A stretch of 64,000 bases of DNA, taken from NCBI RefSeq assembly GCF_009914755.1, contig NC_060939.1; one strand, 5' to 3'. The notes beneath the pieces were generated by a model. The model saw only the letters and a list, made by a program, of their open reading frames with translations. It did no database searches and was not told where the DNA came from. Each line of letters begins with the position of its first letter. The first letter of the stretch is position 1. The DNA is from the human T2T-CHM13v2.0 reference genome, Homo sapiens. The position numbers and the translations under genes are program-made. Below, piece by piece: positions 5,281 through 53,934 of this stretch.

Positions 5281-5782
5281 ATATTTTGGTGCAAAACAAA
5301 AACCAACAAAAAGACACAAGCACATTAGCTTGGTTTCAGGAGATGGGGTGGGCAAGTAGGGAAAGAACAGCAGCAGAGCTTTCATAATCTAGCCACCATT
5401 CCGAACCCAGGTGCACCTGCTTCAGTTAAACACAGTTAGCTCCAGGGACTGTCATCCATTTTTGTCTTTGAAATCATGCTACTGATTATCCAGGACCATT
5501 TCAAGTGTCAGTAACCACTTCTTCAGAGAGAGGTGCCTGTTCCTCATATATCCCAGGACGCCCCATTTTCAGACATTGTCTGGCAGTTTATTCACATAAT
5601 TCCACTAAAGCCTTTCTGGAAAAAATGACTGCTGGACATTAGAAGCCAATATTGCAAAATGTCAGTGACAGGGAACACAAATTGTATTTCTACAATCAGC
5701 AGAGTGTTTTAATTCCCTTGGTACAGGGATTTGTTCTTCAACTGATTATCAGATCACTGTGATAATTTCTATTTCTCTTGTC

Positions 5783-6436
5783 ATGAATTATTTGGAACCA
5801 TATATTCTGTTGCTCTTCACATCTTGGAATTATATTGTCCATTTCCAAGGTCAAAGACCACAGAATAAATGTCATCATGACAGCAGGTGAGTAGGGCACA
5901 CAAACAATGCTTCTAAATATGGTGGTTGATGACAGTGCTTGCTTACTAAGACCTCCATATGAATCTGTGGACAACTGGTTTTTGGCAGGTGAAGTCATGT
6001 GAGTGATTCAGTATATGCTGTGTATGGCTGGAGAAAGCTCAGTAGATACAAGAAAAAGCAGTATGTAACAGATCTCCCTCCACCATGCAGTGATCTAAGA
6101 GAAGGACCCAGGCTAAATGGTGACTCTGCACATGTTCTGGCTAAACAAAGAATCTCACAGCAGGAAGAACTGTCCAGCTGTCCCCCACATAGGTCCCTGT
6201 TCGTAGTTCACAGCACTCTGCGGTGTTAGGAACAGGGTTGTGCCAAAGACCCATGCCTACAAAGCATACCAAGCCATGAATCTGCATGCTGCACTCACAC
6301 AGACATAGACAAAGCCAAGACTATTGCCTTTATGATGGTCCATAAACATGGGGCATATTCTCTATAGCACATTCATAGTTTATATGAGAAAATGAGATCT
6401 TGCAGCCTGGAGACCTAGAGTGAGAGATATGACTGA
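5783..6436 (+). pseudogene. Candidate fossil two-exon secreted-protein gene, copy A (exon 5783-5886, intron 5887-6090, exon from 6091)
   Basis: ATG then MNYLEPYILLLFTSWNYIVHFQGQRPQNKCHHDS; donor AG|GTGAGT (phase 2); acceptor ccaccatgcag|; the frame continues DLREGPRLNGDSAHVLAKQR.. to TAG at 6229; TGA at 6434 is shared with copy C. Confidence 0.45.
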
Positions 6437-21652: not shown

Positions 21653-23786
21653 CCTGACAGTCAATGCAATGTGGTATCCTGGACAGAAAAATGACATTTT
21701 TTACTTAAAAGCCTAGTAAAATATGGAAAAAGCCTATACTTCAATAAATAGTTTTGTGCCAACTATTTTTTAGGGCTCATGGTTACATAATCTATTACGT
21801 TGCATGTAATTCAAAGATGTCTAAAGCTTTCTGTACTATCTGTGCATATTTCTGTGTATTTAAAATTATTTCAAAGAAAAAATGTTTTTGAAAAAAGTAT
21901 TAAATGTGATATGAAAAAAATTCCAAAGCACAGACAGAATAGCTTCAGCTCAGGAGATGAAAGGGCATGTAGAGAGAGAATAGCAAAGCATCCTTCCATA
22001 TTGATTTACCAACTTGAACACCGGTACACTTGCTTCAGGAAGATCCCCCCAAGTTCCAGAGACTCATCCTCTTTCATCTTCTTCATCATATTCCGCATTT
22101 TTCAGTCACCAGTTTTAGCATCTGGTGCTAACTACGTAACGATTTTTTGAAAGACAGATGCCTATTACTCACATGTCTCAAAAAGCCCCATTTTCAGATA
22201 TAATTTAGCAGGACTCCAACAAACAGACCAGAATTTATTGAGAGCTTGCAGTGAGGAGTGTCTTAATTCGAACACGACTATGTTGACAACACATCCTCTT
22301 GTGAGTGAAGCATTCATACAGAATGAGTCGCTGAAACTCAATAACACATGTCTACTGTACAAGAAAGGTAACAATCAATATAATGATCTAAAATTATTCT
22401 GGGGACATAGGGGACATGTGTCCAAGATTTATGAGATGTGAGCAACCAAGAGAGCGTGAACACTGATATTTTATAAGTGCTCCAAATCAGTAGATGGGCA
22501 TTTGATTTTCCAGTTAGGGCTGCAGTCAGGGTCTCTTGGCTTCAATACTGTACACGGAGAATTTCAATGACAGATCTTGGTTAAAATAACAACAGTAATA
22601 ACCCCTCATCTATGATATTGCAGCCTGGCACCATTTAACTTAATTTTACTGCGTATAAATAGCAACCGTATACTCCACGCAAACTAGAATGGCAGTGGAA
22701 TTGATGTAGTGAAGAAAGTGACAAATTATTTTCCAAATATAAAGCAAACTTCAGGTTTTATAGGGAAACAAATGGAGGTAAAAATATTTTTATCCTTATT
22801 TTTCTGATAATTCTGTTCTGCTCTTATAAATAGAAAGCTCCACTTTCATTATTTTATAATATAGTGAGTTTATCAGCCACATGTATGAAAATTGTAGAGT
22901 AAAAGTAGGTTTGTGTCGACTTGGTTGGTTCATTTGACTTACACGCATCATTTACTTTATCTCGAATGGTTATTTTTTAAGCCTTGGTTTTGGTACAACA
23001 TGTAAAAGTGTCAGTCTTTGTGCAATATTAAATCTTCACTCAAATAACGTTTCTTTGTGCCTTTGCCTTTGTTTCTGCGTTGCTCCTGTACTTCTGTGAA
23101 CCATATTTCAGTGAGTACTGATGACACTAGCAGTCCAGCCTGCATGGATGCTGACATGGATGCTGTCTCCCATTCTTACCACTGGATGTGAAGAAATGCT
23201 AGATGCAATCCATCCAATCTGTACTCGACTCTCAATTGCATCTTCTCAACTCACAGTGACTTCCAAAGTCCATGACACACCACAGCCTGGAACATCTCCC
23301 AAGGTGGTATCTTGAGGCAATGGTAGAGCTCATGTCACAGTATTGTATGTCTCAGGTATCACTGTCCTTCACTGTTTGATATAATCTCTCTTACAAACCA
23401 TTGTTCCATACATTTTGCCCCTTTTCTGTTTGTTTATACATGTGGTATGGCGTGTCTAAACCTCAGTGAGGATATTAGAATAGGGTTCTGCATATTTAGA
23501 GGTGTGGATCATTGGAAAGCATCTTAGAACCTACCTGCCACATGAAGTCCTGTCTAATCTGTATCAGTTTCTGGGTCTTCACTTATTTTTTTGCCCTTGA
23601 TCTTAGTGAAAAGAACTTGTCAGGTGTTCCATAGGATGTATCGCAATATGGATTTGTTATGTTTTTTCATAATTTGAGTAAGATTAAACATTCATTTATA
23701 CACGTATTTGTCTAATGTTGAAGACAAAAAACCTGAACAATATATTATTTGGAAATACAAATTTAGAAAATAATAATGAAGAATGA

Positions 23787-34749: not shown

Positions 34750-37149
34750 GTAAGCAGAGTACAAAAAATGTTTCTAATAAATTGGTTTAGGCCAGTCCCT
34801 ACTTACAGAGACCTGGATATGAATCTTTTACACAACAGATTTTTTGCAGTTGGATGCTAGTGAGTGGAGAAAGCAGCTGACAAAGTGCTGAGCAATGAGT
34901 CTCCAGACAAACTCTAACTGCATGGAAGATGTGATTTCCCACAATATCTTAAACCAGCAGTTCCTTAGAGGCTGGCCTGGACACCACAATTCTAAAAGAG
35001 ATACCATTTAAGAGAAACCAAATTCTAGACCAGATCATGAGGCAAACACCCAGCACTTTATCTCCACATTCTAACCTGATTAGAAGTTGCAGTTCAATGA
35101 AAGAATGTCTTAGATATTTGAGAGCATGACTTTATCTTTATTTAATTTAGCCTTGCTGGAATTTAAAACTGTAGGGCAAAATTCAGTCAACCTCCTAAAT
35201 TATGTGAGTTTTTGTTTTTGTATGTGAGTTTCTGCATACACATAAAGAAACTCCTATAGTTTAGGAGGTTGACTGAATTTTGGGTGTACAGAAACTCATA
35301 CTTTATGTGCTGCTTCTTCAATCAGGGTATTCCTGAGGGAAAACCAAAAGCAATCCTCAAATGCAAGTACCCAAATTAGGGTTGAGCAGAGTAGCAAGGG
35401 GGCAGATTAAAACATTTTATAAAGACCATTATGCATCTACTTCTGCAGTGACTAATTACCAAGTGATTTCTATGATCACCAACCATATGGTTAAAACAGC
35501 AAATGGGAATGAAGAAAACAGAGTTACATAAATGATATAGCTGAAAGAATGGAGTTCATAATGAAGCTCACAAGGGTCATTGGTCAAATGCCTAAGATTG
35601 CAGTGGGAAGTTTCAAGTTACAGCTTTTTCTAGGTCTTTAGAAAGCTATCACTCCAGTGAATTTTTCAAGTAACTCTTTATAATTTCTATCTTCTTCCTC
35701 AGTGGATTTCTTAAACCATAGTTCATAGAACTACATTTCCATGCATAACAGAAGAATTATAGAATTCCACTAATAACTGTAATGTCTCTAATAGCTATGT
35801 AGAATGTAAATACACTTGGTAAACTTATGTGATAAGATTTAAGCATGTTTCTTCAATAACAGATAAGAATACAGTTGATGAGCCACCATAATCTAACACT
35901 GAGAAATGGGCAGTCACAGAGGACAGTGTATTCCATTCATCATAGGGGGCACATTTTCACATTTGTGAAACACAGATGCACCTTAAATTTGATAGTGTTA
36001 AAACATTATTGACGAGACGGCGACCATAACGTGATTGTCCTCATTTACATATACATGAGCTTGGTCTATAAACCTTCCATTGACATCTTCAGGTCATACC
36101 ATCAACATCATGTCTTGCATAGGGGGTTTCAGACGGTTGGAAAGATAAACTCACAGGAGCACCATAGGAATCTCGCAAGAAGTGCAGCATCACCAAAGTG
36201 TCAGATTAGCACAGGTGATAATAATATGGGGAAAATCATGAGCAGATGAGTTGAAGAGTGATTCAGGAGAGTTACATCTCAATGAGAGAAAATTTAGGAA
36301 AACCTTTGTCAATGTATTTTTCTTGTATGTTCCATCCCATGTAGGAATGACACAAGACAAATATCCACATGTACGCACATTGAATATATTTTTTCCAGTA
36401 ATTGTAATGTATTTATGTTATTACTATGTGATTTATTTATAAGTGATAAAAGTACTAGTTTCTTCATTTGTTAGTGGTTTTGTTCTTCCATTCTGGTGCA
36501 TGAAATAATGACATGTTACAATTGACGCAAATGATATATCTCGCAATTTATTAGAAAATTAATTTTTAGGGGTTAGAATAGGCTTGATAGTATACAACAA
36601 TCTTTATATGTTATCATTTCATAGAATCCATACTGACATCTCAAGAAGTAAGCATGATTTTCACCTCTGTGGTCCATTTCGGAGTCTGAGCTGACTTTCT
36701 ACAGGACAGGTATAAAGGAACCTTGAGTATGATACTGTCTGCCCCAGAGTCTTTGCTCACTTTGACTATGTAGAATGTGTCTTCTCTTACATGGTAAATA
36801 ATTTTCAGGTCTAGTTAGACAGCTCAGCCTACCCTCTGTCATGAAGATATTTTCCTAAATTGTTTTGTTAATACTCTTTTATTTTTATATTTAAGCCTAT
36901 GAACCAACTAGAATTGATTTTGTGTGTATGTGAGGTCAAAGGTCAGATATTGGTTATTCCCTGTGGATATTCAATTTCCTGGAACATTTTAATAAAAATT
37001 GATCTTTCCCCCATGCATCAATGTATAAATCAATTTTTATATATGTATATGTCTGCATTCTAGCTCTGTTTTTATTTTTTAAGTTACTGGTTGTTTCTTC
37101 TATCTTTGTGCAAATTCTACACTGTCTTATTATTATCATTATTATTATC

Positions 37150-37437
37150 TTTTTTTTTGATACAGAGTCACTCTGTTGCCCAGGCTGGAGTGTTATGGTG
37201 CAATCATGGCTCACTGCAACCTCCTCCTCCTGGGTTCAAGCGATTCTTGTGCATCAGCCTCCCGAGTAATGGATTATAGGTGTGCGCCACCACACCAGGC
37301 TAATTGTTTTGTATTTTTAGTACAGATGGAGTTTCACCATGTTGGCTAGGCTGGTCTCGAGCTCCTGACCTCAGGTGATCTACCCGCCTCAGCCTCCCAG
37401 CATGCTGGGATTACAAGTGTGAGTCACTGCACCTATT
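37150..37437 (-). mobile_element. AluS
   Basis: Full Alu; TSD acactgtcttattatta. Confidence 0.9.
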
Positions 37438-37504
37438 CCACACTGTCTTATTATTAAGAGAGTCTATTTAGAACAATAATTTTCTCTCCAGAGATTTTTT
37501 TATA

Positions 37505-37810
37505 TTTTTTCTTTTTTAAGAGAGATAGAAGATTTCATCCGGTTGTCCAGCTAGGGTATAGTGGCTCAGTCGTAGAACAGATTATGTGTTCAAACTACTG
37601 GGATCAAGTGATCCTCCCCTCTCAGCATCCTGAATAGGTAGGACTACAGGCACAAGCCACCATGCCTGGTTAATTAATTTTTTTTTTTTTGGTAGACACC
37701 AGGTCTTCCTGTGTTTCCCATGCTAGTGTAGAACTCTTAGCCACAAGCAATCCTCCCTGCTTTGTCTCCCAGGGTGCTAAGATTACAGGTGTAAGCCACT
37801 GTGCCTGGCC
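37505..37810 (-). mobile_element. AluJ
   Basis: Diverged Alu dimer with J-type tcaagtgatcctccc. Confidence 0.85.
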
Positions 37811-37954
37811 CAGAGCCTCTTCTTTTAGCCACGGTACTTCTCTATAATGAAGTAAAAAATGTAACAACCTGCATGTCTTGCACCTACACCAATACTTTCA
37901 GCTGTACCTTGAATAAAGCAGTAGGTTTAGAACTTTTTTTAAAAAAAAAATTTA

Positions 37955-38254
37955 ATTGTTTTTTGAGACAGGATCTCGCTCTTACACCTGGGCTGGAGTG
38001 CAGTGGCAAGATCTTGGCTCACTGGAGCCTCGACTTCTGGGCTCAAGCAATCCTCCCACCTCACTTTCCCAAGTAGCTAGGATCACAGGTGCACAACTCC
38101 ATGCCCAGTTAAATTTTTTTATTTTTGTATTTTTTGTAGAGATGGGGTTTCACCTTGTTGCCCAGGCTGATCTCGAATTCCCGATTTCAAGCAATCCACC
38201 CACCTCAGCCTCCTGAAGTGCTGGGATTACAGGTGTGAGCCACCGCACCCGGCT
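37955..38254 (-). mobile_element. AluJ
   Basis: Alu dimer; TSD ggtttagaactt. Confidence 0.88.
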
Positions 38255-39035
38255 GGTTTAGAACTTAGAACGTTGCTGTAGACTCTTAAATCCCTTAATA
38301 TGCTTGTGAATCTGAGACAATCCCCCAACACCACTCCCCAGTTTATGTATACATACTTTCAACAACAGCCAGTAGTATTGAAAACCTTGAGATGCACCCA
38401 TAGTAACCTCCTGCACTGGTGTAGATGACCCCGTGACAGGTTGCTTCTTCTCCAGACCATGCCCACCAAAGTCACAGCCACATGGGAGCCTCTGAGCTCA
38501 GAGACACTGTTTGGGGTCTCCATGCACAAGGGCAGCAGCTCCCTGTCCTTTCTGTTGGTGAGGTGGGGAATTCAGTTCTTTTGAATAAGGCTGAGTTTAT
38601 TCAATACTGATTCTGCTGGCTGACCAGTGATACCTTAAGACTTTATTTCTTGCATTGTAATATTTATCCTGGTTTTGATATGATTTGTTGTGCAAATGTG
38701 TTTAACTCTTGGGTATAATTTTTTTCTTTTTTTGTTGTCATAAACGTCATCTAAAATCAAATTTTTATTTTTGTGTTGTGTGTTTAAGGTCTTTAGTCCT
38801 CTGTTTTAAAAATGCATTCACAATTATTTTTCAATGAACACTTTTAATTTTTTTAATCTTTTCTCATATTTCTCTCTCCTAAATTGAATGTGAATATCAC
38901 TTTTATTAGAAAAGATAGATGTTACACATTCTCTGTTTTATGTTTTTGTGCAAATTTTCTCTGAAATATCTCTGGTTGAAAAGGAGAAGGACAGAAACTG
39001 TTCTGGAAGCCAAAAGGCAAAATTGGCTCAGATTC

Positions 39036-39216
39036 CTAAAAATACAAAAAATTAGCCGGGCGAGCTGGCGGGCGCCTCTAGTCCCAGCTACTGGGGAGGC
39101 TGAGGCAGGAGAATGGTGTGAACCCCAGGGGGCGGAGCCTGCAGTGAGCCGAGGTCGCGCCACTGCACTCCAGCCTGGGCAACACCGAGACTCTGTCTCA
39201 AAAAAAAAAAAAAAAA
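39036..39216 (+). mobile_element. 5'-truncated AluY (Ye-like)
   Basis: gggcgag.., gaaccccagggggcggagcctgcag and the 2-nt deletion near the 3' end; TSD aaaattggctcagat. Confidence 0.85.
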
Positions 39217-40058
39217 TTGGCTCAGATCCTTATGCTTAAAAAGATGTGTGAAACTTTCTATTATATGGCTTAGTTTGCTGTACGTGTGGAAGGTTAACAA
39301 GGTATTGATTTGTGTAGCAGTACAGTAACACTTCACGTCTGAATACAAGGAGCAACCACTTCCTAACTGTGCAGGTGTGAACTTCATGATGTTGCTTTAT
39401 CTTCCGCTTATACAAAGATTTAGACAATGGCTGGACTCCGTAATTCCTTCCACCTCACTTCCATAAATGTGTGCATGACATTTCTTTGTACAGATCACCT
39501 AGTCTATTAGATAATAATTTTTCTTATTTTTGATGAGTGATTATTAAATTTGGTTTTAGTTCTCAGAGATATAAAAAATACCACTTAGAAAATGTGTACA
39601 TTGAGTGCTGTAATCAGAAAATACTTTTGTGCCATTGACTTGTAAAAAGGGAATTTCAATTTTTTATTTATTGTCATTTTCATCTACCTTAATATGCTCA
39701 AAAGGCTTTCATGCTTATGCTCTTTTTAGATTTTAATTTTTGTTGTCTTAGTCAAAAAACATGTGAGGGTTGGACACACTTGTTCAAGATGTGTGAGACA
39801 TGAGCAATCAACAGAGCAAAAACACTGGTATTTTATGGGAATATGTAATAAGAGATGGGCACTTGCCCTGCTAGGTGTGGCAGCCGTCAGGGTCTGTGGG
39901 CTTCGGTGCTGTACACAGAATCGACAGATCCTGCTTGAAGGAAAAAGTGCCCCTCATCTGTCGTACGACAGCCTGGCACCATTTTGTTACGAAACCCAGG
40001 TTTGGCCATGGCCACTTCCAAAATCAAGTAACAGAAGGGTAGTAAAAAGAAAGTCACT

Positions 40059-40269
40059 GGCCGGGCGTGCTGGCTCACACCTGTGATCCCAGCACTTTGG
40101 GAGGCCGAGGCGGGATGATCACCTGAGGTCAGGAGTTCAAGACCAGCCTGGCCAACATGGCGAAACCCTGTCTCTACTAAAAATACAAAAATTAGCCGAG
40201 CACCGTGGCGTGTGCCTGTAATCCCAACTACTGGGGAGAGAGAGAGACTCCTTCTCCAAAAAAAAAAAA
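40059..40269 (+). mobile_element. AluSx with deleted right arm, inside the 3' LTR
   Basis: TSD aaaaagaaagtcact; most of the right arm is replaced by (GA)n. Confidence 0.9.
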
Positions 40270-41073
40270 GAAAGTCACTTTATTCCCGAGCTTAGCAATG
40301 TGGAAGGGCTGGATTCATATCTAAAGGAACCATATAAGTTTTCTGGGCAGAAAACAGAGTTTTAAGAAGAAAAATTGGCAAGCAGGGCACGCAGAAGGGG
40401 TGTGGAGGTGTAGGATCTGCATGACTCGATGGATGACTTATCTCTAGTCATGGGTCATTCGTTAGCCTGCCCAGCATCACTGGGGACAGAGTCAGGTTGT
40501 GGATTAACTGATGTCTTGAGACAATCTCTCTGTGGAGGAGAATTCTGGTGGATGCTTATTTTCGTTCAAGATTTGGTAATTTGTAAGCAAACATGTACTT
40601 AGATAAGCTGACAGTGCTTGCTGGTTGTTTGGCTGGTGGAAAGGAAGGAGGGAAAAGTTTGAATTTTCATTTCTAAGGAGCTAAGTAAGACATGAACACA
40701 CAGGAAAAAGAGAAAAAGTAAATATTTTTTAAGGAAAATGAAGTACTTGTTTACAACACCCCACTGTCAAATTCCACTTTATTTTTATGCGATTGGAGCA
40801 TCATACACATTTGGTGTGCTTCCTACTGAAAGGGAGCATAGTTACAGAGCATTAGAATGGAATCTGTTTACCTGGAGTTGGAAATATTCTTGAGTTTTCA
40901 GCAGGAACTTACTGTGCATGTATGGTGTGAGGATCCAAGAATTTCTGAGAATGATTTCCTGCATCTCCATGTAGAGTGTACAACAGCAATAAAATTCATT
41001 GCAGCTGAAGAGGGCATTTAACAGTATTAATAATATCTATAAAAGTATTTTATGCATCAGGAAGCCAACTAAA

Positions 41074-41400
41074 TCATGATGTCATAGAGTCCTGACAGAG
41101 GGCATCTATAGTAGAAATATGGGTATCTACATGTATAGCTTGGGTTATATTGTGAGAATAATCTGGTGTGTGTGTGTGTGTGTGTGTCTGTATGTGTGTA
41201 AAATGGTCAGCCTTAATGAATGCACAAGTGCCACCCTGGGCTGCAGTTAACATATCTAAAGCCATATGATTTAAAGACATCATGAGATTGGAGATAGGAT
41301 TAGTTTGCTTGTGCATGTCTTTTAGGGCTGAGGATATGTTTCTGGAGTTATCCAGGAAGTATACACAGCATTTAGTCTTAATTATAGTGCAAAGCCCCAA
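41074..41400 (-). pseudogene. env: Retroviral env TM remnants (two tandem ISD/CX6CC regions)
   Basis: GLCTIIKTKCCVYFLDNSRNIS and NHMALDMLTAAQGGTCAFIK..PDYSHNITQA in the ORF track. Confidence 0.85.
41166..41187. repeat. (TG)n microsatellite within the env remnant
   Basis: Seen directly. Confidence 0.95.
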
Positions 41401-41429
41401 ATGTCAGTTGTACCCAGAGCTCCAGTGGA

Positions 41430-42145
41430 GATATGAGGACAAGTTGGTTAACTATACATACTTAACAGGCTACAGGAGGAGTTGTAAATGTTCATGAAGG
41501 TGGTCCTCACCCATGTGTATTAACAAATATCCATGGAACACACAACTCATTTATTTTGGGGCAGAGACTTAACTTTTCAATATATTATAATTATGCCCTA
41601 TATTTCAAAAGTTCTTCTGAGGACAAAGGCATACAAGTGTGCATTTACTGTAAACCGGCCAAAACTAGTTTATGGTGAGTGATCTTTTATCAGGAGAAAA
41701 TTACCGAAATTGGTCCCTTGTCTACTTCAATCTGTAGTTATGGCTGGTGGAACAGTGTCTGAGGTCAGTCAGTCAGCTTATCTTGAGGCTAGTGCTTGCT
41801 TGGCTGCTAGAGAAACACAGAAACCTTGTGGCAGTTGTAAACATAGTCTGCTTTTTTAAAGTGTAGGAATGTGAGACTTAACGCTTGCCTGGCATGTTTT
41901 TAAGTCCTGTTCATAATTTGGTATTTTATTGTTATAAAGAGTCTGTTTTACAGTTTTTATTGTAACGTTAATGCTGATCAGTTGTGCCTAAATTCCCATA
42001 ATGGGAGGAAGGTATAGTGAAGCATGTTCAACACCCCTCTTGTTGTCATGGCCTGAATTAGTTTTTCAGGTTGCTTTGGCTAACATGCGGGTAGGGAGTC
42101 TCCATTAAGTTGGTGGGGGCTTAGGACTTTATTTTGTAGTTTATA
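41430..42145 (-). mobile_element. MER4C-like LTR (3'-truncated) inside the provirus
   Basis: Minus strand starts ..aaaataaagtcctaagccccc..aaaaactaattcaggccatgac, preceded by the purine tract gacaaaaaaggagaa. Confidence 0.7.
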
Positions 42146-42730
42146 TTCTCCTTTTTTGTCAAGGTATGCCAGAGGCAGTATTGGTAGCCACGCTTCTATT
42201 TTCCCTCATGTCAATGCCAGAGCGGCGTGCTACCTGACCTGTGTCCATCATGTTCCTTGGTGAGACCACTATGTCCAAGGGACTTAGAATCAAAGGTCTT
42301 ATATCCAATTAAATGTTGTAGGCCAGACTGGAATGAACATGGGCAGGCAGTCTTTAATCCTTAAAACCTCTTTTAAGCAATGTAAGAGCCAAAAACTAAA
42401 AGTCAAAAGGTAAGGTTATATAACTGAATTGTCTCTGAATTTTATGCATTGAGCTGTTGTAATCTTGGCTTATAGGAAATATAGCTATACAAAACATAAG
42501 TATTTTATTTAGCTGTTTAGGCATCCATGTGCCCATCCTTTATTTGGGGGTCTGAATTAATTTTATTCCACAAGAACCGGCCCTTACAATCTCATGCATT
42601 CATACCTTCCATGATAGTCCCTGGGTCTGCAGGAATTGAACAGTTTTAAATTCTGGATATATTAATAAAACAAAATATTCACCATTAACAACATTTTAAG
42701 CAAAAATGCCATAAGTCTTGTCTTTTCCTA

Positions 42731-43096
<366 letters not shown>

Positions 43097-46000
43097 TTAG
43101 AGGAGCTACATGTATCCTGGAGTCAATTCTTTGTACCTTAACACCAGAAAGATTAGTTAATAGCACCTGATAAGAACTTTTTCAGGGTGTTGGAGGTGGT
43201 GATACACTTCACAGTGATTAAAGTTTTTTACCTTTGATAAGCCCCAGAAATAAGTCAGAGACTTAATTTAGGATTCAATTTGAGAGATGTCTGTGAAAGA
43301 TGTGAGAAAGCTTAAAATACTTGATCAAAACTAAACCACAGGTCCTTGTGAAACAATAGTTATTCATTTAACCAAAGTGATTTAAAGGCAATAGAAAAAG
43401 TTACAAGGGTGTAAAAACCGTACTCCTCTCAAATTTCAGGGGTTTCTGAAAAGCATTAAACACTTAACAAAGGCAGCATAGGAACTATCTTGATAAAATG
43501 TAAAATCTTGTTTCTTAAGCCAGTTACCAAAAAGTCAAAGGAAAACCTTTCTTAGTGTGAGTGCCTCTCCTTAGAAGAAAGCCCGTTTACATAATCTGGA
43601 AGTACAACTTAAGATAAAAAGTGCTTGAATTTAATCAAACATGGGAAGAGTGTGTACAAGATTTTGAGTAGAACTGGGGAATACATGACTCTTAGTAGCT
43701 GCATGATAAGTTTCCTGATTACAGTGAAAATTTAGACACACCAAAAACAACAACAACAAAAAAACCCAAGAGTATAGAATCAGGTTATCCTGGAGGAAAA
43801 CATTTCTTTTATAGACCTCTAAAATAAAATATTTCAGCATCAGCCACAACAACATTTAGAACTAAGGAAAAAAGTTATAGGAGCTGACAAGAAGCTGAAG
43901 GATAGAGTTATCATCCCAGGCCACATCAAAGGGAGAGAAAGCTGATAGCAGCAAGACAACAATTGAACATTTGAGATATGAATCTCAGAAGTTTTCAAAA
44001 GAAGTAGATTATAGAACAGAAAATCAAAATTTACTGTAATTTTATTAAGAGTAAATTGATACCTTAAGAAAATCTTGATTTAACATAGGGGACCATTCTT
44101 TAGAAAGACTTATTAATTCCTTTTTAATTATGGCTAACTTAATTGCATACAAAATTTCTTTTATAAATTCCCCTTCACAAGCCTTATCATGACTTACACA
44201 GACCATCTGTCACATGCTTGGACTGTATACTTGTCCTGTAGTACCTGTTTCTTTTTTAATTTTTTTTCAATTTTCTTTTTCTAGATTAACTTTGTAATAA
44301 GAATCTGTTGCTTAAATAACCAGTCATTTTACTTTAGGAGAATAATTTCCCATACAAGATTCTTTCTCATAGAAAATTACTCTTTTTCCTTTATAACCTT
44401 CCTTACCAAAAGTATATGTTCCTTTCTGTATCTTTCTTCACAACTCTGTTCACCACTTACTGCTTCCTTCCCAGCTTGTTTCATAAATAACCTTTTCAAA
44501 CCCGTAATTTGAATAAACTTTTATATAACTTTGGAATTAGACAAAATAATTCTTTTTCTCAATAAGGACACCTCTTCTTTGGCACATTTGATAGAAACCT
44601 AGGAAAAAAGAAATCCTGAACTATCAGATATTAGTATTGTATAGATGAGAACCATTTCACAATTTTTAGAACAGTTTTCTCTATATAATAACCCTTTCTT
44701 AATTGGAAATGACCTAGACATCTAGTAAGCATCCAAAATGATTTTAAGATTTTAAATTATACAAAAATTTCACTTAGAAACATTGATCTCATTTATGTGT
44801 ACTCAGCTTTTCCATTTTACCAGTTTACCTAGAGTACTTTTGAAAACTGGGATATTACATCAAAGTAGTAATTATTTATTTATGTCCCTATGACCCATTT
44901 TTAAAGTCTGTGGACATTAGGTGTTTTACCTAAGTAAGAACCTTAAAGTTCAATATATGGGCATTTTGTCAATAGCACAGAAGATTTAACTGTTTTCACT
45001 GAACTAGTAATATTAAATTAGTCTAACTCATCTGTAAAATCACACAAACAAAAATGATTCTGTTTTTGGCTGGGTTTATGGTCTTATAACCTTTATGTCA
45101 TATCCTGACACCTGATGATATAGACAGAGATAAATACAAAATCATTTGTTCAGTAAACTCAGATAAAAATATATGCTGATCATTTTGAAGATATTTCCAA
45201 TATTATGTCACGAATAATCTTAAAACCAATTTTATTTCTCAAGGATTACTAAATTTACGTGAACTTGAAAAGCATCCTGACTTAATTTATGAGCACTTAT
45301 TTACTTGTAAGTCAATTTGGTAGCAGGCTAGACATAACACATAATACACATACATACACACAAACATATCTAAATATGTATACACACAGAAGTAAAGTTC
45401 TAATAGCTTTTACCTTGGGATTCTAACCATAAAATAACAGTACACACTCAGTATTTTATAAAGATAGCTGGATACACGTTATTGTCTGACAAAACTGAAA
45501 CCTGTTTCCATGGCTAAATTTTGTTTTCTGCAATACATAATCCCATGAAAGCTGTGAACCAAAATTTGGGTAAAGCAATCTTTATGGCAGTTTTGTTTTT
45601 AAAAAAGCATCTTTTCCCTTTTATTTCCTTTAGTTTTAAACAAGTTTCTTGTGTTTACTTTCTAGTTAGTCCATAAATAATGAGTCTTAGCACCGGCAGC
45701 TTAGTAACATCCAATTTGAAGCAGGCAGAAAAGAAAACAGAGGAAGAAAGAGAGGTTTTGATGACTCTGCTTAACTTAATAGTTGCAGTTAACCATTTGA
45801 GCTCTAAAGTTTTCTTGCTAGAATTTGCCTATCTGTTTAAAATGTTCACAAAAGTAGGTCTTAATAAGTAACCAGCTGAAATCCCAAAGAGAATGAGAAT
45901 ATGAAGTTCCTGCCAGGCCTTTTAAAAGGAGGGAAAGAAAAAGAAAGAAAAGGAGGTTTGTGAACCTTCTAGCGCTGCATGGTATAGGGTTGGTACCCCC

Positions 46001-46751
46001 ACCACTCTTGCTTACATCCCATCAGGGAGAGCCCCGCTACCCTAGACATGCACAGTGTGAGACGAATCCCTCCCACCTCTGCCATCATGGGGGAAGGAAA
46101 CTGTTTACAGCTGGAGAGAGCTAAGGGTACCTTTGACTGAAATGAGTAAGGCTGTAGGTGGCTTCCAAGATAGTCAGTAAGATGAAGTTGGAAGTGAAAA
46201 GGATAGGAAGAGATCAGGGCCCACACTCAAAGGTCATACACTCACACTTACAAACAAATGGTGAGCTTCCAAACAAACCCCAGTTAAGGGGCTGAGTAGA
46301 ATCCTGAATTTCTCTCCTCTGTTCAAAACAGCTCCATGGGTGTCTGAGACCAAATCGAGCAATGTCCAGTAGTGCCACCAATACAAATCCGTAAAACACT
46401 CAAATGATAGTCCCATTAGTGGACCAGATGAAACAGCAAAGCCCCAGCAACACCCCAGAAGACACAGGAAAGCGGGGTGCACTCTACTAGCTCACTTGGT
46501 TGCATGGGCTGCCAGCTTCTTCAGAGGTCACATTCTTTGTACCAGCAAAGTGTTGATGGCTGCAGAAGTTGTGCAAGGAAGTGAAAGGGAGGGTCTAGGA
46601 AATGAAAGATTTTCAGCAGCTGCTTGGAAGTTCCCTAACATTCCTGCCATGGGGTCTGCTAGCCTTCAGCTGCTGGTGCTCACAGGCAACCCTCCGCCTT
46701 GGTAGAAAAACCAGGCTCACAGGCTTGGGTTGCTCAGAGCACATAATGCTG

Positions 46752-46767
46752 CCCATACGGGCCACCA
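46752..46767 (-). other. Primer binding site, tRNA-Ile
   Basis: TGGTGGCCCGTATGGG, 15/16 to the complement of the tRNA-Ile(AAU) 3' end, 4 nt after the LTR end. Confidence 0.8.
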
Positions 46768-47414
46768 AATTTGTTACCAAACACAGGTTTGGCCACTTGT
46801 CACTTACAATATTAAATAACAAGCAAGAGGGTGGTAAAAAGAAAGTGACTTTATTTCACAGCTTAGCAATGGAGAAGAACCAGGTTCATATCTAAAGGAG
46901 CCGCTTCAGTTTTCCGGGAAGAAAGCAGGGTTTTAAGAAGAGAAACTTTCTTGTGCAGGGTATGCAGAAGGAACATGGAGGTGTGGGGTCTATGTGACTT
47001 GCTGTAAAACTTAGCTAAGGGGTCATCTGTTAGTCTGACCAGTGTCATTGAGGAAAGAGTCAGAATGTGGATTAACTATTGTCTTGAGACAGTCTCCTTG
47101 TGAGGGAGAATTCTGGATGTTGCCTGCTTTGGTTCAACATTTGGTCCTTAGAATTTCTAAGGAAACATATACTTAGATAAGCTGGCAATACTTGCAGGTT
47201 GTTTCACTGGTGGAAACGAAGGAAAGAAAAGGTTACATTTGCATTTCTGAGGAGCTAAGCAAGAGGTGAACACTGAGAAAAAGAAAAAATGCAAAGGTAA
47301 TTTTTAGGAAAATAGTATACTGGGTTACAACTTAACTTAATTTCACTGTGTCTAAAGAGCAACCCTATACTTCATGCAAACTACATAGCCTGGGGCATTC
47401 ATGTGGTGAAGAAC

Positions 47415-47423
47415 AGAGAAAAA

Positions 47424-47459
<36 letters not shown>

Positions 47460-49079
47460 TTGTAGTGCTCTTGAATTTATTTACAATGAAAATAACAAAA
47501 AGCAGTGAGAAACAGCATTTCACTGAATAACAGCACCTTAGTATTATAGTAAGCAGAGCATGGTTTGGGATAAAATTACCTGAATAATTGAAAGAATTCC
47601 ATCGTAACATGATTTCACCTATATGTTAGACCCATGGATTCTATAAACCCACTTAGAGCGTTGTACCAATGTTTAAATTACATGCTTTACAGAATCCAAT
47701 TCAAATGTATTTTTATATGTCATCAGAACTGCCATGGAAAGTGGTAACTATACATGCATTGTGGTTTTAGGTAAATTTTCTTTTAAAAAGAGGAATTGTA
47801 TATGTCTTCATAGGAAGTGATCCAGGGAAAGCTTGATTTGTTTTAGTAATTCTTTTCTTAATACTTTTACACTCTTTATCCTACTCTCATTTCTTCACAT
47901 TCACAAGAAAGAGGCTTTGTTTACCTTTCTGCTCACTTTTGGGTGATCATGATGTGTCAATGAACTCAAACAAATTTACAAGAAAAAAACAAACAACCCC
48001 ATCAAAAAGTGGGCGAAGGACATGAACAGACACTTCTCAAAAGAAGACATTTATGCAGCCAAAAAACACATGAAGAAATGCTCATCATCACTGGCCATCA
48101 GAGAAATGCAAATCAAAACCACTATGAGATATCATCTCACACCAGTTAGAATGGCAATCATTAAAAAGTCAGGAAACAACAGGTGCTGGAGAGGATGTGG
48201 AGAAATAGGAACACTTTTACACTGTTGGTGGGACTGTAAACTAGTTCAACCATTGTGGAAGTCAGTGTGGCGATTCCTCAGGGATCTAGAACTAGAAATA
48301 CCATTTGACCCAGCCATCCCATTACTGGGTATATACCCAAAGGACTATAAATCATGCTGCTATAAAGACACATGCACACGTATGTTTATTGCGGCACTAT
48401 TCACAATAGCAAAGACTTGGAACCAACCCAAATGTCCAACAATGATAGACTGGATTAAGAAAATGTGGCACATATACACCATGGAATACTATGCAGCCAT
48501 AAAAAATGATGAGTTCATATCCTTTGTAGGGACATGGATGAAATTGGAAACCATCATTCTCAGTAAACTATCGCAAGAACAAAAAACCAAACACCGCATA
48601 TTCTCACTCATAGGTGGGAATTGAACAATGAGATCACATGGACACAGGAAGGGGAATATCACACTCTGGGGACTGTGGTGGGGTCGGGGGAGGGGGGAGG
48701 GATAGCACTGGGAGATATACCTAATGCTAGATGACACATTAGTGGGTGCAGCGCACCAGCATGGCACATGTATACATATGTAACTAACCTGCACAATGTG
48801 CACATGTACCCTAAAACTTAGAGTATAATAAAAAAAAAAAAAAAAAAAAAAACTCAACAATAAGAAAGCACACAGCCTGATTTTTTAAATGTGCCAAAGG
48901 CCTTAACTGATGCCTCTCCAAAGAAGATATTCAGATAGCAAATAAGCATACAAAAAGATGCTCTACCTTGTATGTCATTTGGGAAATGCAAGTTAAAACA
49001 ACAATGTGATACCACTGTTACACAATTGATGAACCTACATTGACACATCATGATCACCCAAAAGAGAAAAAATATTTTT
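47415..49079 (-). mobile_element. L1HS insertion with 3' transduction and 5' inversion (whole event including TSDs)
   Basis: TSD AGAGAAAAAATATTTTT at 47415-47431 and 49063-49079; poly(T) 47427-47457; AATAAA on the minus strand at 47476-47481; 27-bp inverted overlap. Confidence 0.9.
47958..48852 (+). mobile_element. L1HS Ta (Ta-0) 3' ~890 bp: ORF2 C-terminus, 3'UTR and source poly(A)
   Basis: Ta diagnostics gatgACAcatt and cttaGagtataat; aaGgaCtataaa fits Ta-0; ORF 48022-48624 is the ORF2p C-terminus. Confidence 0.93.
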
Positions 49080-50608
49080 AAGATGCAAAGGAAACTGGAG
49101 ATTTTTTTAAGGAAAATCAATGAAGGAAGAAACCTTTATTGGCTTCTCCTTTTGGTGACAAATGTATTGTTCTCTTATAAGTAGAAAACTATACTTTAAT
49201 TATTTCGTAATGTAGTGATTTTACCAGCCACAACTAACAGGATAACATAGGAAAGGCAGGTTGGTGTCCACACAGGGTGACTGAATCTACCTAACACACC
49301 ATTTACTTTGTTTCTAAACAGTGTGTATTCCTTCATTCTTGGGTTGGATGCAAGATCACTGAGTCATGGAAAACTTTGTCTTTTTGTAGTCAGAAATTAG
49401 ATGAAAGCATAAAGGGGAATTACTGTTTATTAAATAATTCATTTAAATTACTTTACTTTCAATCTTTGCTTTTTGTTTCTGTACTGCGCCAGTACTCCTG
49501 TGAACCATGTCTCAGTGGAGTAATGATGGCACCACAGTCCGGCCTGCATGGCTGTTGGCATGCGTGCTCCCTCCTCGTGCAGCCATGGAGAATGGCTTCA
49601 TGAAATTCAGCCACCTCTTTCTCCAGACTGTCAGTTCCATCTTCTCAACTCTGAGGGTCTTCCAGAGTCCGTGCCACACCACAGCCTGGAAACTCTCCCC
49701 AAGCAGTAACCTGAGGCAACAGTAGCCCTCATTGTTTCACGTCTCTCAGATGTCACTGTCCTTCATTGTTTGATGTGCGCTGTCTTGCAATCCATCCTTC
49801 CAGATAAATCGTCCATTTTTACCTGTGATAAGCCATGTCCAATTGCCATAAGTTTTTCCACAACATTTTGTTTCATTCTTCCTGCAATTACGCAATCATT
49901 ACTGTACCACCGCCTATATGGATATACTTGTCAATGTGAAGCTGAGTAAGGAACAACGTTCACCAAACTCACAGACAAAGATGGACAAGCGAGCAGGCCT
50001 TTGTATCACTAAAGGGAAGCTCAGATTGGTAAATATGTAATGTCTGTAGTAGTCTCGTTGGGGACATCCACAGTATGTTAATGAATCAAAGACTGAAGAA
50101 GGATCTCAAAAAAAGAATAATATCTCTGTCTCAACTCTTATACACATAACAGACTTATTTACCCTTATTGAAAAAGTCCTTCTAGAATTTTAAATTTACA
50201 CTTTATTCATATAAAAATGAAAGCAATATTGAAATTAATTCATAAATTCACACGTATCTTGGTATTCTGATTGTGATTGTTCTGAATTAGGTGTTGACAC
50301 TTTTTCAAAGTGATGATTGATATAGTTGGATGAATATCCACCATGTTTGTTAGAATCTTCTAGTTTTTGCGCTTCCCTGTTTCCATTTTTGTCTTCCATT
50401 CATTTTCCTTTTTTTGTGGTTTTTATTCAGCATTTCATATAATTCAATCTTCTTTCTTAGCATCTCAGACTTTTTTATACTTTTTTATTGGTTACTCAAG
50501 ATAAAAACTTTTAATTTTCATATTCTTAATTGATCTTACATATAAGAGCTTATTTAATATAATTATATTCAATAGCAGACAGGTGCCTTTCAAAAAAAAT
50601 AGTAGCAA

Positions 50609-50914
<306 letters not shown>

Positions 50915-52283
50915 GCAGCAATTAATTTAATTATATTTTCCTAAGTATAAGATATATATAGATATGTGTGTATATATATACATATAAGTAAAATGAAAGG
51001 AAAAAAGGGAGAAAAGAAAAAATACAGGAAAAAGGAAGAAATAGTTAGAACTATTCTTTTATAAGATGGTTACACTACTTCTGAGGCTGTATACTTTTAT
51101 ATGACAGGAGCTTAGATTAGTAGTAAATATAAATTGCAACCTCTAGGGGAGGACACTGGATGAGGAGCCTCAGTTTTTTGCTGTCTGTGGCCAGAGGCTG
51201 CATGCAGTTATTTCCCATGTTGGCTTCTCTCCCATGGCAGAATGTGTCATCAAAGCCACCATGACAGAGAGCTTGCAGCAAGACAGGTATCATAATCTTA
51301 GGTAACATGATTACCCAAGTGACATCCTATCAGGTTGTAGTCTTCTGATATATCAAAGCAAGTTTCAGTTTCTCCCCAAAGTCACAAGGAAAGGATTAGA
51401 TATTCTAATTAAGCTCTGAGGATCATTGTGCACCATCTGAGAGTTCACCTGCCAACGTCAGGTCTTGCTTAATCTGGGACAGGTTCTCAGTCCTCACTTT
51501 GTGAGAAAACAGGTCACATAGTTTGTAAAATGTATCAAAATCCAGATTTCTCTGAATGTTTCTCATAATTTTACTGAGCAATATAGAGAGAGACATGTAA
51601 TTATCTATTTGTGAAGAGAAGAAACAGCAAACAGGACATTATTAACAAATACAAATTTAGAGACCAAAACTAAGAAAGAAAAGTTTGCGAATGGGAAAAG
51701 GAAAATTAAAAATAATGGTAATGTTCACCAGGGTAACAAAAAGCGTGGGAATGGGGAGGTGAGCACCTGGGACGCTACGAGATCGACAGTGTTCTGCTTA
51801 GTAAGCTCAATAGTGTAATTTTTAAAATATATATATTTTATTTATTTTTTAAGTCTGTGTTAGAATAGCTTGGATTTACAGAATAGTTAGAAGTACATAC
51901 AGAGAGTTTATATATATTCAACACATAATTTCCCTTTTATAAATTCTTACATTCATTTGAGACATTTGTTGCAATTGATGAACCAATATTATACATTATC
52001 ATTCAGCAACATTCACAATTAATCAGATGTTCTGTTCTCACCTAATGTCCATATTCTGTTCCAGGATTCCACCCAGGACACCACATCACATTTAGGTATC
52101 GTGTGCCAGTTTCTCAGATTTTCCTTATTTCTGATATCATTGAAATCCTTCCTTTGGGATGTCTCTGGTGTTTTCTTAATGATTGGATGGCTGTTGTGGA
52201 TTTAGCAGAGGAAACCCACAGAGGGAAACTTTTATTCTCATGATATTATAACAAGAGTACATAGTGTCAACATGCTGTATCAG

Positions 52284-52594
52284 TTTTTTTTTTTTTTTTT
52301 TTTTTTTTTGAGACAGGGTCTCACTCTGTTGCTCAGGCCGGAGTGCAGTGGCATGAACAAAGCTCGCTGCAGCCTCGAACTCCTGGGCTTGAATGATCCT
52401 CCACCTCATCCTCTTGAGTAGATGGGACTACAGGCATGTGCCACCACATCTGGGTGATTTAATTTTACTTGTACTTTTGTAGAGGCAGAGTCTCACGACA
52501 TTGCTCAGGCTGGTCTCTAAGTCCTGGCCCTAAGCGATCCTCTCACCTCAGGCTCCCAAGTGCTGGAATTACAGGTGTGAGCCACTGTGCCCAG
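52284..52594 (-). mobile_element. AluJ
   Basis: Poly(T) plus J-type dimer; degenerate TSD tgct(g/t)tatca. Confidence 0.9.
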
Positions 52595-53934
52595 CTGCTT
52601 TATCATGGTTAATGTTATTTGATCACACGGATGAGGCAGTTTAGCTCAGTTTTCTCCACTATAAAATTAATATTATTCCCCTTCTCATGTTGTACCTTTT
52701 GGAAAAAACATCACTATGCACAGCACATACATACTTCTATAAATGTCATTTGTGTTTCTGTAAAAAATATTTAACATTCCTTGGGCTGTTCTGGATCAAT
52801 TGCATTTTTCTGTGCGTTTTAGAGTCAGTGGTCCAAGAGTTGCTAAAAATGAAAAAAAATTAAAGTTAGAATTTTAGTAGGGCTTGTATTGAATCTGAAG
52901 ATGCATTTAGAAAGTATAAGCATCTTGGTTAATACTTAATAGCTTTCTGATCAATGAAAATCTAGTTCATATAGTATATTACACTAATTCTTTTATTCAT
53001 TTATTTAGGATTTCTTTAATACTTCAATATCATTTGTAATTTTCAGTATATATATCTTGCAGTTATATTATTTTCAAATATATTTCCTTTTGGATGCCAT
53101 GTTAAATGAAATTACTTTCTGAGTTTCATTATTTGATTAGTTTCTATTGTATAAGAATGCAATTTATTACATCGATCATGCATACTGAATTTTTTTTTGT
53201 TCCAACCTTATTTTAGTGAATTTTTTAGGATTTTCTATACATTAGATTATGTCACTGGCCAATAGATGTTTGACTTCTTCCCTTTCAATTTGGAAGTCTT
53301 ATATTTATTTTTCCAGCCTAATTTTATAAATTACATCCTCAGGCATAATGTTTAGTTGAATTAGTGGAATAGATAACCTTTTGTGTTTGTAATTTTGGGA
53401 AAATTACTGAGACCTACTTGATACCATGTGTTGTCATGTGAATTTTTCATGGGTGCCTGTGTTAGGTAAGAACATTCCCTTTATGCAAAATTTGTTTAGT
53501 GTTTTTACTGTGAGTGGTTTTTTGAATTGGAAAGTGCTTATTCCATATCTTTAGATGTGATAAAGAAAATTTTGTCATTTATTATATTAATATAGTGATT
53601 ACACTAATTCTTTTTATATGTTTTACCAAACTTGTGATCCTGAGAAAATAAATAAATAAATTAGTGTTTAATTCTGTTTTACGATCCTGATCTGTGTTCA
53701 GACTATTTCCTCGAGAATTATTGCTTGGGTATCCATAAAGCATATGAGTTTATAGTTTTCCTTTTTTGGACTGTTTTTGTTTGGTAGTGGCCTCAGAGGA
53801 AACTGCCTCATAGAATGTATTGCACACTGATCTCTTCTCTATTATTTTATCTTTTTGGAGAACAGTTAGTAAAAAATTGCTGTTAATATTTTAAGGGTTT
53901 CATATAAATCATCAGTGAAGTCTTCTCAACCAGG

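What the first reader, a model, noticed from the sequence alone, without database searches (positions are those of the whole stretch)
47415..49079. Human-specific L1HS Ta-0 insertion with ~690-nt 3' transduction and twin-priming inversion inside the transduced tag
Seen: a perfect 17-bp TSD (47415-47431, 49063-49079) at a canonical TTTT/AA site; a 31-nt poly(T) with AATAAA 18 nt upstream on the minus strand; 505 bp of non-L1HS sequence (47458-47962). Then, in the opposite orientation, 0.9 kb of L1HS Ta, the source poly(A) and 212 bp of source flank (48853-49064). 47936-47962 is the exact reverse complement of 49038-49064 (27 bp), with CAATG microhomology at the inversion junction and AG at the internal priming site. 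The paralog at ~22710-22745 shows the empty state. Known mechanism: read-through 3' transduction plus twin priming. Repeat annotation would show only a + strand L1HS without a TSD. The tag barcodes the source L1, which sits in an old L1M at aaaactcaacaataag.
Basis: partly seen in the sequence, partly recalled or inferred. Interest (0 to 1): 0.8.

Follow-up and report, generated by a model that had tools for sequence, protein, structure and literature searches.

The report
Inverted L1 insertion carrying source flank
This is a young human L1 jumping-gene copy on chromosome 15 that dragged along about 690 bases from beside its parent element on chromosome 4 and was partly flipped during insertion; it is a clean textbook example of known mechanisms, not a new one.

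Summary
Window 47432-49062 (1631 bp) is one retrotransposition insert. It lies between perfect 17-bp target-site duplications at a TTTTT/AA site.

The parent was found in the same assembly. It is a full-length 6012-bp L1 with its own 16-bp duplication at C4:115203142-115209153. Its 3' flank matches both non-L1 pieces of the insert as one contiguous 691-nt stretch. That stretch ends 18-19 nt after the first AATAAA downstream of the L1.

The insert has two arms in opposite orientation:
- a non-inverted arm made only of distal tag;
- an inverted arm made of 867 nt of L1, A23 and proximal tag.

Both arms copied the same 27 nt. They meet at a 5-nt microhomology, which is the twin-priming signature.

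The diagnostic bases are Ta-0. Source and offspring share a private base, 48708 C. A 95-98% identical paralog 57 kb away shows the exact empty site.

Human specificity could not be tested on ape DNA. It is supported only by subfamily and by 0.39% source-offspring divergence. Inversion breakpoints inside transduced sequence are already in print. Verdict: correct, well documented, ordinary.

The parts
47415..47431 (.). Left copy of the 17-bp target-site duplication. Its last five T are the primer for first-strand synthesis.
   Evidence: Identical to 49063-49079. It is present once in the paralog at L042 3516-3532.
47432..47457 (-). Poly(A) tail of the inserted RNA, seen as 26 T on the + strand. 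The last base may be templated.
   Evidence: T-run 47427-47457. The source has no A-run at the matching place; it reads CAACTA then CATATG.
47458..47962 (-). Non-inverted arm: the distal 505 nt of the 3' transduced flank, with AATAAA 18-19 nt before the tail.
   Evidence: blastn gives 47457-47962(-) = L002 2191-1686 with 1 mismatch in 506. Genome search of 47458-47935 finds 2 of 2 places: the window and C4:115209391-115209868.
47958..47962 (.). Inversion junction: the 5-nt microhomology CAATG is shared by the ends of both cDNAs.
   Evidence: Both blastn alignments include these 5 bases: the L1 alignment starts at 47958 and the tag alignment ends at 47962.
47963..48829 (+). Inverted arm, part 1: 867 nt of the L1 3' end (ORF2 tail and 3' UTR) with Ta-0 diagnostic bases.
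   Evidence: 5 mismatches to the C4 source. 99.65-99.9% identical to 29 other genomic copies. ACA at 48736-38, G at 48342, C at 48345 and G at 48821.
48830..48852 (+). Inverted arm, part 2: the source element's own poly(A) tract (A23 here, A25 at the source), which transcription read through.
48853..49062 (+). Inverted arm, part 3: the proximal 210 nt of the transduced flank. The first ~165 nt derive from an old L1.
   Evidence: 100% identical to C4:115209179-115209388. The other 38 listed hits are 77-84% identical.
49038..49064 (.). The 27 nt of source RNA that are copied into both arms; the partner copy is 47936-47962.
   Evidence: L002 1686-1712 is covered by both alignments. See also inverted repeat I5.
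49063..49079 (.). Right copy of the 17-bp target-site duplication. Its first two bases, AG, also match the source RNA at the internal priming site.

Best explanation
One L1 retrotransposition event produced the insert.

The source is a full-length Ta-0 L1 at C4:115203142-115209153. Its transcript read through the element's own weak poly(A) signal. It was polyadenylated 691 nt further on, after the first downstream AATAAA.

At the chr15 target, the L1 endonuclease nicked the + strand at TTTTT/AA. The T-run primed reverse transcription from the poly(A) tail. This first cDNA copied the distal 505-506 nt of the flank.

The minus strand was nicked 17 bp away. Its 3' end, paired through AG, primed a second cDNA inside the flank. 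This second cDNA ran 5'-wards through the proximal 212 nt of flank, the source A-tract and 867 nt of L1.

The 3' ends of the two cDNAs annealed through the complementary CAATG/CATTG and were joined. This is twin priming.

Shown: the anatomy, the source, the contiguity of the tag, the empty site and the shared private base.

Inferred: the order of the priming steps, that a single RNA molecule was used, and the date after the human-chimpanzee split.
For: - TSD and endonuclease site.
- Exact empty site with one copy of the 17-mer in a 95-98% identical paralog.
- Source locus: 48853-49062 is 100% identical to C4:115209179-115209388. The distal 478 nt match only C4:115209391-115209868 besides the window, 2 of 2 hits.
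- blastn shows the two arms cover L002 604-1712 and 1686-2191, a 27-nt overlap.
- The source is full length, with its own TSD, an open 338-codon ORF1 and a 1275-codon ORF2 frame. Pfam finds L1 ORF1 domains, an endonuclease and a reverse transcriptase.
- The C4 flank continues past the cleavage point without an A-run. The AATAAA used is the first canonical hexamer after the L1's own.
- 48708 C is shared by source and offspring only; it is T in 29 of 29 and in 11 of 11 other copies.
- Published passages describe cDNA overlaps in 5'-inverted L1s (PMC12016303).
- Published passages describe inversion breakpoints in transduced sequence (PMC13009371).
Against: Nothing contradicts the mechanism. Four points are open.

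- The 27-nt overlap is longer than the published quartile range of 4-17 bp.
- All 5 L1 differences between source and offspring lie on the source side and none on the offspring side. This is mildly unexpected under a clock: p is 0.03-0.22, depending on the unpolarised sixth difference.
- The source ORF2 in this assembly carries an in-frame stop. The copy as it stands is therefore probably not autonomous. The stop is one of the source-private differences, so it is most simply later than the event.
- Human specificity was not tested on ape sequence.
Confidence: 0.93

Rival explanations
1. Dual priming: two separate RNA molecules, both read-through transcripts of the same C4 source, were primed one at each nick. 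No single RNA was copied twice.
For: The 27-nt stretch was copied into both cDNAs. This is easy to explain with two templates. Meyer et al. propose such a mechanism and say it cannot be told from twin priming (PMC2837659, section 'Dual priming').
Against: In that model the second RNA anneals by its poly(A) tail. Here the second cDNA starts inside the flank at an AG microhomology, 479 nt before the tail. Overlaps are also reported for ordinary twin priming.
Confidence: 0.05
2. An ordinary, uninverted L1 insertion with a 3' transduction was later rearranged by a DNA-level inversion.
For: The end product contains an inverted segment. Inversions between inverted repeats do occur.
Against: A later inversion would not produce a 27-nt duplication placed so that one copy abuts the TSD with AG microhomology and the other abuts the truncated L1 end with CAATG microhomology. 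The inverted part is precisely the 5' part of the RNA and reaches exactly to the TSD.
Confidence: 0.015
3. Two independent insertions from the same source landed side by side, or DNA was copied from chr4 by segmental duplication or gene conversion.
For: Both pieces come from the same C4 locus.
Against: There is only one TSD pair, and it brackets the whole insert. The paralog shows a single uninterrupted target. The + strand L1 arm has no tail-plus-TSD of its own. The insert ends in a non-templated A-tail 18-19 nt after AATAAA, whereas the C4 DNA continues with unrelated sequence. This points to an RNA intermediate, not DNA copying.
Confidence: 0.005

Closest known systems
L1 3' transduction (partnered), used as a barcode to trace source elements
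   Same: An internal source poly(A) tract is followed by unique flank and then a second poly(A) tail 18-19 nt after a downstream AATAAA. The tag maps directly 3' of a full-length L1. The description in PMC13009371 fits: about 25% of insertions carry a transduction, and the tag ends 10-30 bp after a signal (passages).
   Different: Nothing in kind. The 691-nt tag is split into two pieces in opposite orientation, so the second tail lies at the 5' side of the + strand L1 fragment.
Twin priming (5' inversion of L1 insertions; Ostertag and Kazazian 2001. The original was not held, so it is known here only through passages of PMC12016303, PMC13009371 and PMC3024322)
   Same: There are two cDNA arms in opposite orientation inside one TSD, and the 5' part of the RNA is the inverted one. 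The junction shows microhomology, and an overlap is copied into both arms.
   Different: Both the internal priming site and the end of the non-inverted arm lie in the transduced flank, not in L1. The non-inverted arm therefore contains no L1 sequence at all. The 27-nt overlap exceeds the published quartiles of 4-17 bp.
Inversion breakpoints in transduced sequence, and inverted orphan transductions, in colorectal cancers and germline polymorphisms (PMC13009371)
   Same: That paper reports breakpoint clusters in the downstream transduced sequence of some source L1s, and a 16% inversion rate in orphan transductions (passage in 'Insertion length variation...').
   Different: This is a reference-genome germline insertion. 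Its source is not among the 27 chr4 rows of that paper's Data S1. The nearest entry, 4q25-1, lies about 194 kb away by my anchor estimate.
Poly(T)-headed truncated L1s (Meyer et al. 2010, PMC2837659)
   Same: A sense-oriented truncated L1 has a poly(T) touching the 5' TSD, read as twin priming with a short non-inverted arm.
   Different: Their screen required the poly(T) to lie within 20 bp of the L1. Here 505 nt of transduced flank lie between them. The locus is not among their 39 (Table 2). They found no junction microhomology; here there are 5 nt.

Membership tests
L1HS, Ta subfamily, Ta-0 subset | ACA at L19088.1 positions 5929-5931 (ACG in pre-Ta) | tested here: met
   ACA at 48736-48738. 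The rule comes from the methods passage of bioRxiv 10.1101/179705. Among 11 independently chosen copies the same column shows ACA, ACG and GAG.
L1HS, Ta subfamily, Ta-0 subset | G and C at 5535 and 5538 (T and G in Ta-1) | tested here: met
   G at 48342 and C at 48345, which lie 394 and 391 nt before the ACA as the published numbering requires. The source has the same bases.
L1HS, Ta subfamily, Ta-0 subset | G in the 3' UTR shared variant 'ACA/G' (older elements have GAG/A) | tested here: met
   G at 48821. The rule comes from the introduction passage of PMC6354063. That this is the position numbered about 6015 is recalled, not from a call.
Endonuclease-dependent target-primed reverse transcription insertion | Target-site duplication, a TTTT/A-type cut site and a poly(A) tail | tested here: met
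   A 17-bp TSD, a TTTTT/AA site and a 25-26-nt tail. The empty site is in a paralog.
3' transduction | The non-L1 sequence maps contiguously and immediately 3' of a full-length source L1 elsewhere, and ends at a downstream poly(A) signal | tested here: met
Twin priming | Two arms in opposite orientation within one TSD, with the 5' part of the RNA inverted and abutting the 5' TSD | tested here: met
Twin priming | Microhomology at the internal priming site and at the inversion junction | tested here: met
   AG (2 nt) at 49063-64 and CAATG (5 nt) at 47958-62. That microhomology is typical of twin priming is taken (passage) and from recall of the original paper.
Human-specific insertion | Empty orthologous site in chimpanzee and other apes | not testable with these tools
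   No ape or pangenome sequence is held. The support is indirect: the Ta-0 bases, and 6 differences in 1558 nt between source and offspring, which is 0.385% (Poisson 95% 0.14-0.84%). This compares with about 1.2% human-chimpanzee divergence (recalled).

The most novel reading that the evidence does not exclude
Since the jump, the full-length source copy has gained 5 (perhaps 6) substitutions over the 1558 compared bases. One of them is the ORF2 stop. The truncated offspring has gained 0 (perhaps 1). If this asymmetry is real and not chance, full-length L1s at their home locus would mutate faster than their dead copies. That would bias divergence-based dating of young L1s and of their inactivation.
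Probability: 0.08. Interest if true: 0.45.

Novelty: new member of a known kind. Interest (0 to 1): 0.22.

Why it matters
The locus matters in three small ways.

First, it is a fully resolved parent-offspring pair of young human L1s: source, tag, poly(A) site, empty site and an inherited private base. It can serve as a worked example.

Second, it can serve as a test case for annotation tools. The non-inverted arm holds no L1 sequence. Pipelines that pair two L1 fragments to call twin priming can therefore miss it; RISCI states this limit. So can pipelines that look for a second tail 3' of the L1 to call transductions. They would leave about 0.5 kb of retro-copied DNA labelled as unique sequence.

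Third, it shows that the C4 source was once active and now carries a premature stop in this assembly.

It does not change what is known about L1 biology.

Tried and rejected
- The original twin-priming paper (PMC311219) is not held. I relied on passages in later papers.
- Sibling insertions from the same source: I searched the genome with the proximal 210 nt, the proximal 65 nt and the distal 478 nt of the tag. Beyond the source and this insert I found 0 matches above 94%. A 35-nt 94% match on C3 was not followed up and is probably an old L1.
- Is the source the known non-reference source '4q25-1' (hg38 chr4:111707806, PMC13009371 Data S1)? I anchored the assembly with the only OAR-domain hit on C4 (113920064-113920117) and with recalled hg38 PITX2 coordinates. 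This gives an offset of about 3.30 Mb and puts 4q25-1 about 194 kb from our source, so I rejected the identity. The test rests on recalled coordinates.
- Meyer et al. Table 2 (39 loci) lists no chr15 locus. Their supplement is not readable here.
- The held supplements of PMC12350158 (3 files) contain none of six coordinate prefixes for the insert or the source. This is weak evidence, because the files may be cut or may use other coordinates.
- A literature search for 4q25 + 15q11.2 + transduction + LINE-1 gave 1 paper, which was irrelevant.
- Pfam on the 219-residue ORF2 tail of the insert found 0 families. Its L1 identity therefore rests on nucleotide identity to full-length copies.
- A first Pfam call failed on a wrong frame. 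Two paper-tool calls failed on disallowed characters.
- Fisher test of 5/867 differences in L1 against 1/691 in the tag: p = 0.24, no excess.

Full report
**Observation**

The window sequence shows a perfect 17-bp direct repeat at 47415-47431 and 49063-49079. The repeat finder reports it as 19 of 20 matches over 47412-47431 and 49060-79.

Between the two copies lie 1631 bp, made up as follows:
- 47432-47457: a T-run. The whole run 47427-47457 is 31 T, and five of these belong to the repeat.
- 47458-47962: 505 nt of non-L1 sequence.
- 47963-48829: 867 nt of L1 3' end on the + strand.
- 48830-48852: A23.
- 48853-49062: 210 nt of non-L1 flank.

On the minus strand an AATAAA lies 18-19 nt before the tail. 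The pre-insertion target reads TTTTT/AA on the + strand. 47936-47962 is the reverse complement of 49038-49064 (pair I5).

**Source**

A search of the window's own assembly with 48853-49062 gave one other 100% match, C4:115209179-115209388. The other 38 listed matches are 77-84% identical and cover only the first ~165 nt, so they are an old L1 family.

The distal piece, 47458-47935 on the minus strand, has exactly two places in the genome: the window and C4:115209391-115209868 (2 of 2 candidates).

blastn of the insert against the C4 locus gives two alignments:
- 47958-49064(+) = L002 604-1712, with 5 mismatches and a 2-nt difference in the A-tract.
- 47457-47962(-) = L002 2191-1686, with 1 mismatch.

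The two pieces are therefore contiguous at C4 and overlap by 27 nt (L002 1686-1712). Together they make a 691-nt tag that starts right after the A25 tract of an L1.

That L1 is full length: 6012 bp at C4:115203142-115209153. It has the following coding features:
- ORF1 is an open 338-codon frame.
- ORF2 is a 1275-codon frame with one in-frame stop at codon 1131.
- Pfam finds the three L1 ORF1 domains, an endonuclease and a reverse transcriptase.

**Direction of copying**

The C4 flank continues beyond the end of the tag with unrelated sequence and no A-run. The chr15 copy ends there in a poly(A) tail. The AATAAA used is the first canonical hexamer downstream of the L1's own. So chr4 is the parent and chr15 the offspring, and the intermediate was a polyadenylated read-through RNA.

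An independent marker supports this. At 48708 both copies have C. All 29 nearest L1 copies have T. So do all 11 copies chosen by similarity to a different part of the source.

**Empty site**

It is only 79% and 66% identical.

A far closer paralog lies 57.4 kb downstream, outside the window. It is 97.7% identical over 3 kb on the left and 95.0% over 3 kb on the right. It holds a single copy of the 17-mer, followed directly by AAGATGC, at C15:21928788-21928804. The tag searches found nothing there.

This shows that the whole 1631 bp is one insertion into an intact target.

**Mechanism**

The non-inverted arm runs from the tail to L002 1686. It is the cDNA primed by the T-run at the first nick.

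The inverted arm starts at L002 1712 next to the right TSD. There AG is shared by the RNA and the target. The arm runs 5'-wards to L1 position ~5146 of the source.

The 3' ends of the two cDNAs would end in CAATG and CATTG, which are complementary. These 5 bases are included in both alignments.

This is the twin-priming product. Published long-read surveys report the following:
- The two cDNAs overlap in many 5'-inverted L1s, more often in the germline, with a median of 12 bp and quartiles of 4-17 bp (PMC12016303, passages). The 27 nt here are on the long side.
- Inversion breakpoints also cluster in the transduced sequence of some sources, and 16% of orphan transductions are inverted (PMC13009371, passage).

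The combination is therefore known.

**Rivals**

- Dual priming with two RNAs (PMC2837659, section read) cannot be excluded. However, that model primes on the tail, not inside the flank.
- A later DNA inversion does not fit the junction anatomy or the tail.
- Two separate insertions do not fit them either.
- DNA-level copying from chr4 does not fit them either.

**Subfamily and age**

The bases are ACA at 48736-38, G and C at 48342 and 48345, and G at 48821. These match the published rules for Ta and Ta-0:
- bioRxiv 10.1101/179705, methods passage;
- PMC6354063, introduction passage.

Other genomic copies show the alternative states at exactly these columns.

Source and offspring differ at 6 of 1558 compared bases, which is 0.385% (Poisson 95% 0.14-0.84%). 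This is about a third of the ~1.2% human-chimpanzee divergence (recalled) and points to an event after the split. That the Ta subfamily is confined to humans is also recalled. No ape sequence was available, so this part stays inferred.

**Against or unexplained**

All 5 differences in the L1 part are private to the source. The offspring base is shared by 28-29 of 29 copies and by 10-11 of 11 copies. One of these differences is the ORF2 stop. The offspring has no private change there.

A split of 5:0 gives p = 0.06. With the unpolarised tag difference, p ranges from 0.03 to 0.22. The excess of differences in L1 over the tag is not significant (Fisher p = 0.24).

By bit-score differences, the source's ORF2 region is about 13-18 mismatches in 3166 nt from its nearest copies. 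The source is therefore moderately diverged throughout. I treat the asymmetry as probable chance.

**Is it in print?**

I found no record of this locus or this source. What I checked:
- The 27 chr4 rows of Data S1 of PMC13009371. The nearest entry, 4q25-1, is a non-reference element about 194 kb away by an anchor that rests on recalled PITX2 coordinates.
- Table 2 of PMC2837659. Its screen required the poly(T) to lie within 20 bp of the L1.
- The held supplements of PMC12350158.
- A keyword search.

Supplements that I could not read (PMC2837659), and catalogues in hg18, hg19 or hg38 coordinates, may still list it. RISCI notes that twin-priming calls fail when one arm is not annotated as the same repeat (PMC3024322, passage). 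That is the case here.

**Verdict**

This is a real, fully explained and well-read locus. It is one more instance of two known L1 side-reactions occurring together. Interest is low.

Noticed in passing
L042 491-6545 (C15:21925763-21931817, outside the window); window 44400-52100: The flanks of the insertion belong to a duplicated segment with a copy 57.4 kb downstream. That copy is 97.7% identical on the left and 95.0% on the right, and it lacks the insert. The extent and copy number of this duplication were not mapped.
   Followed up: partly
window 22630-23425 and 40265-40757: Older paralogs of the same flanks lie inside the window, at 66-79% and 76% identity. The region is therefore built of ancient repeated units.
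   Followed up: no
L009 8511-8513 (C4 source L1): In this assembly the source element's ORF2 has a single in-frame stop at codon 1131 of 1275. ORF1 is open. The stop is one of the five source-private differences.
   Followed up: yes
window 48857-49023 versus 47978-48142: The proximal part of the tag is old L1 and is 65% identical over 167 nt to the young L1 ORF2 stretch in the same insert, in the same orientation. The source had landed in an old L1 close to the homologous position at which its offspring was later truncated. This is probably coincidence.
   Followed up: no
window 47751; 48014, 48058, 48132, 48188, 48809: Of six source-offspring differences, the five that can be polarised all fall on the source lineage.
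   Followed up: partly
G000:C3:157693109-157693143: A 35-nt match at 94% identity to the first bases of the tag. It is probably an old L1 relative, not a sibling with a short transduction.
   Followed up: no
window 47415-49079 within 36710-53895: According to the hub's gene table, the insert lies in an intron of the + strand lncRNA LOC105370733. The tag's AATAAA is antisense to that gene. The inverted L1 arm, with its own AATAAA at 48826-31, is in sense.
   Followed up: no
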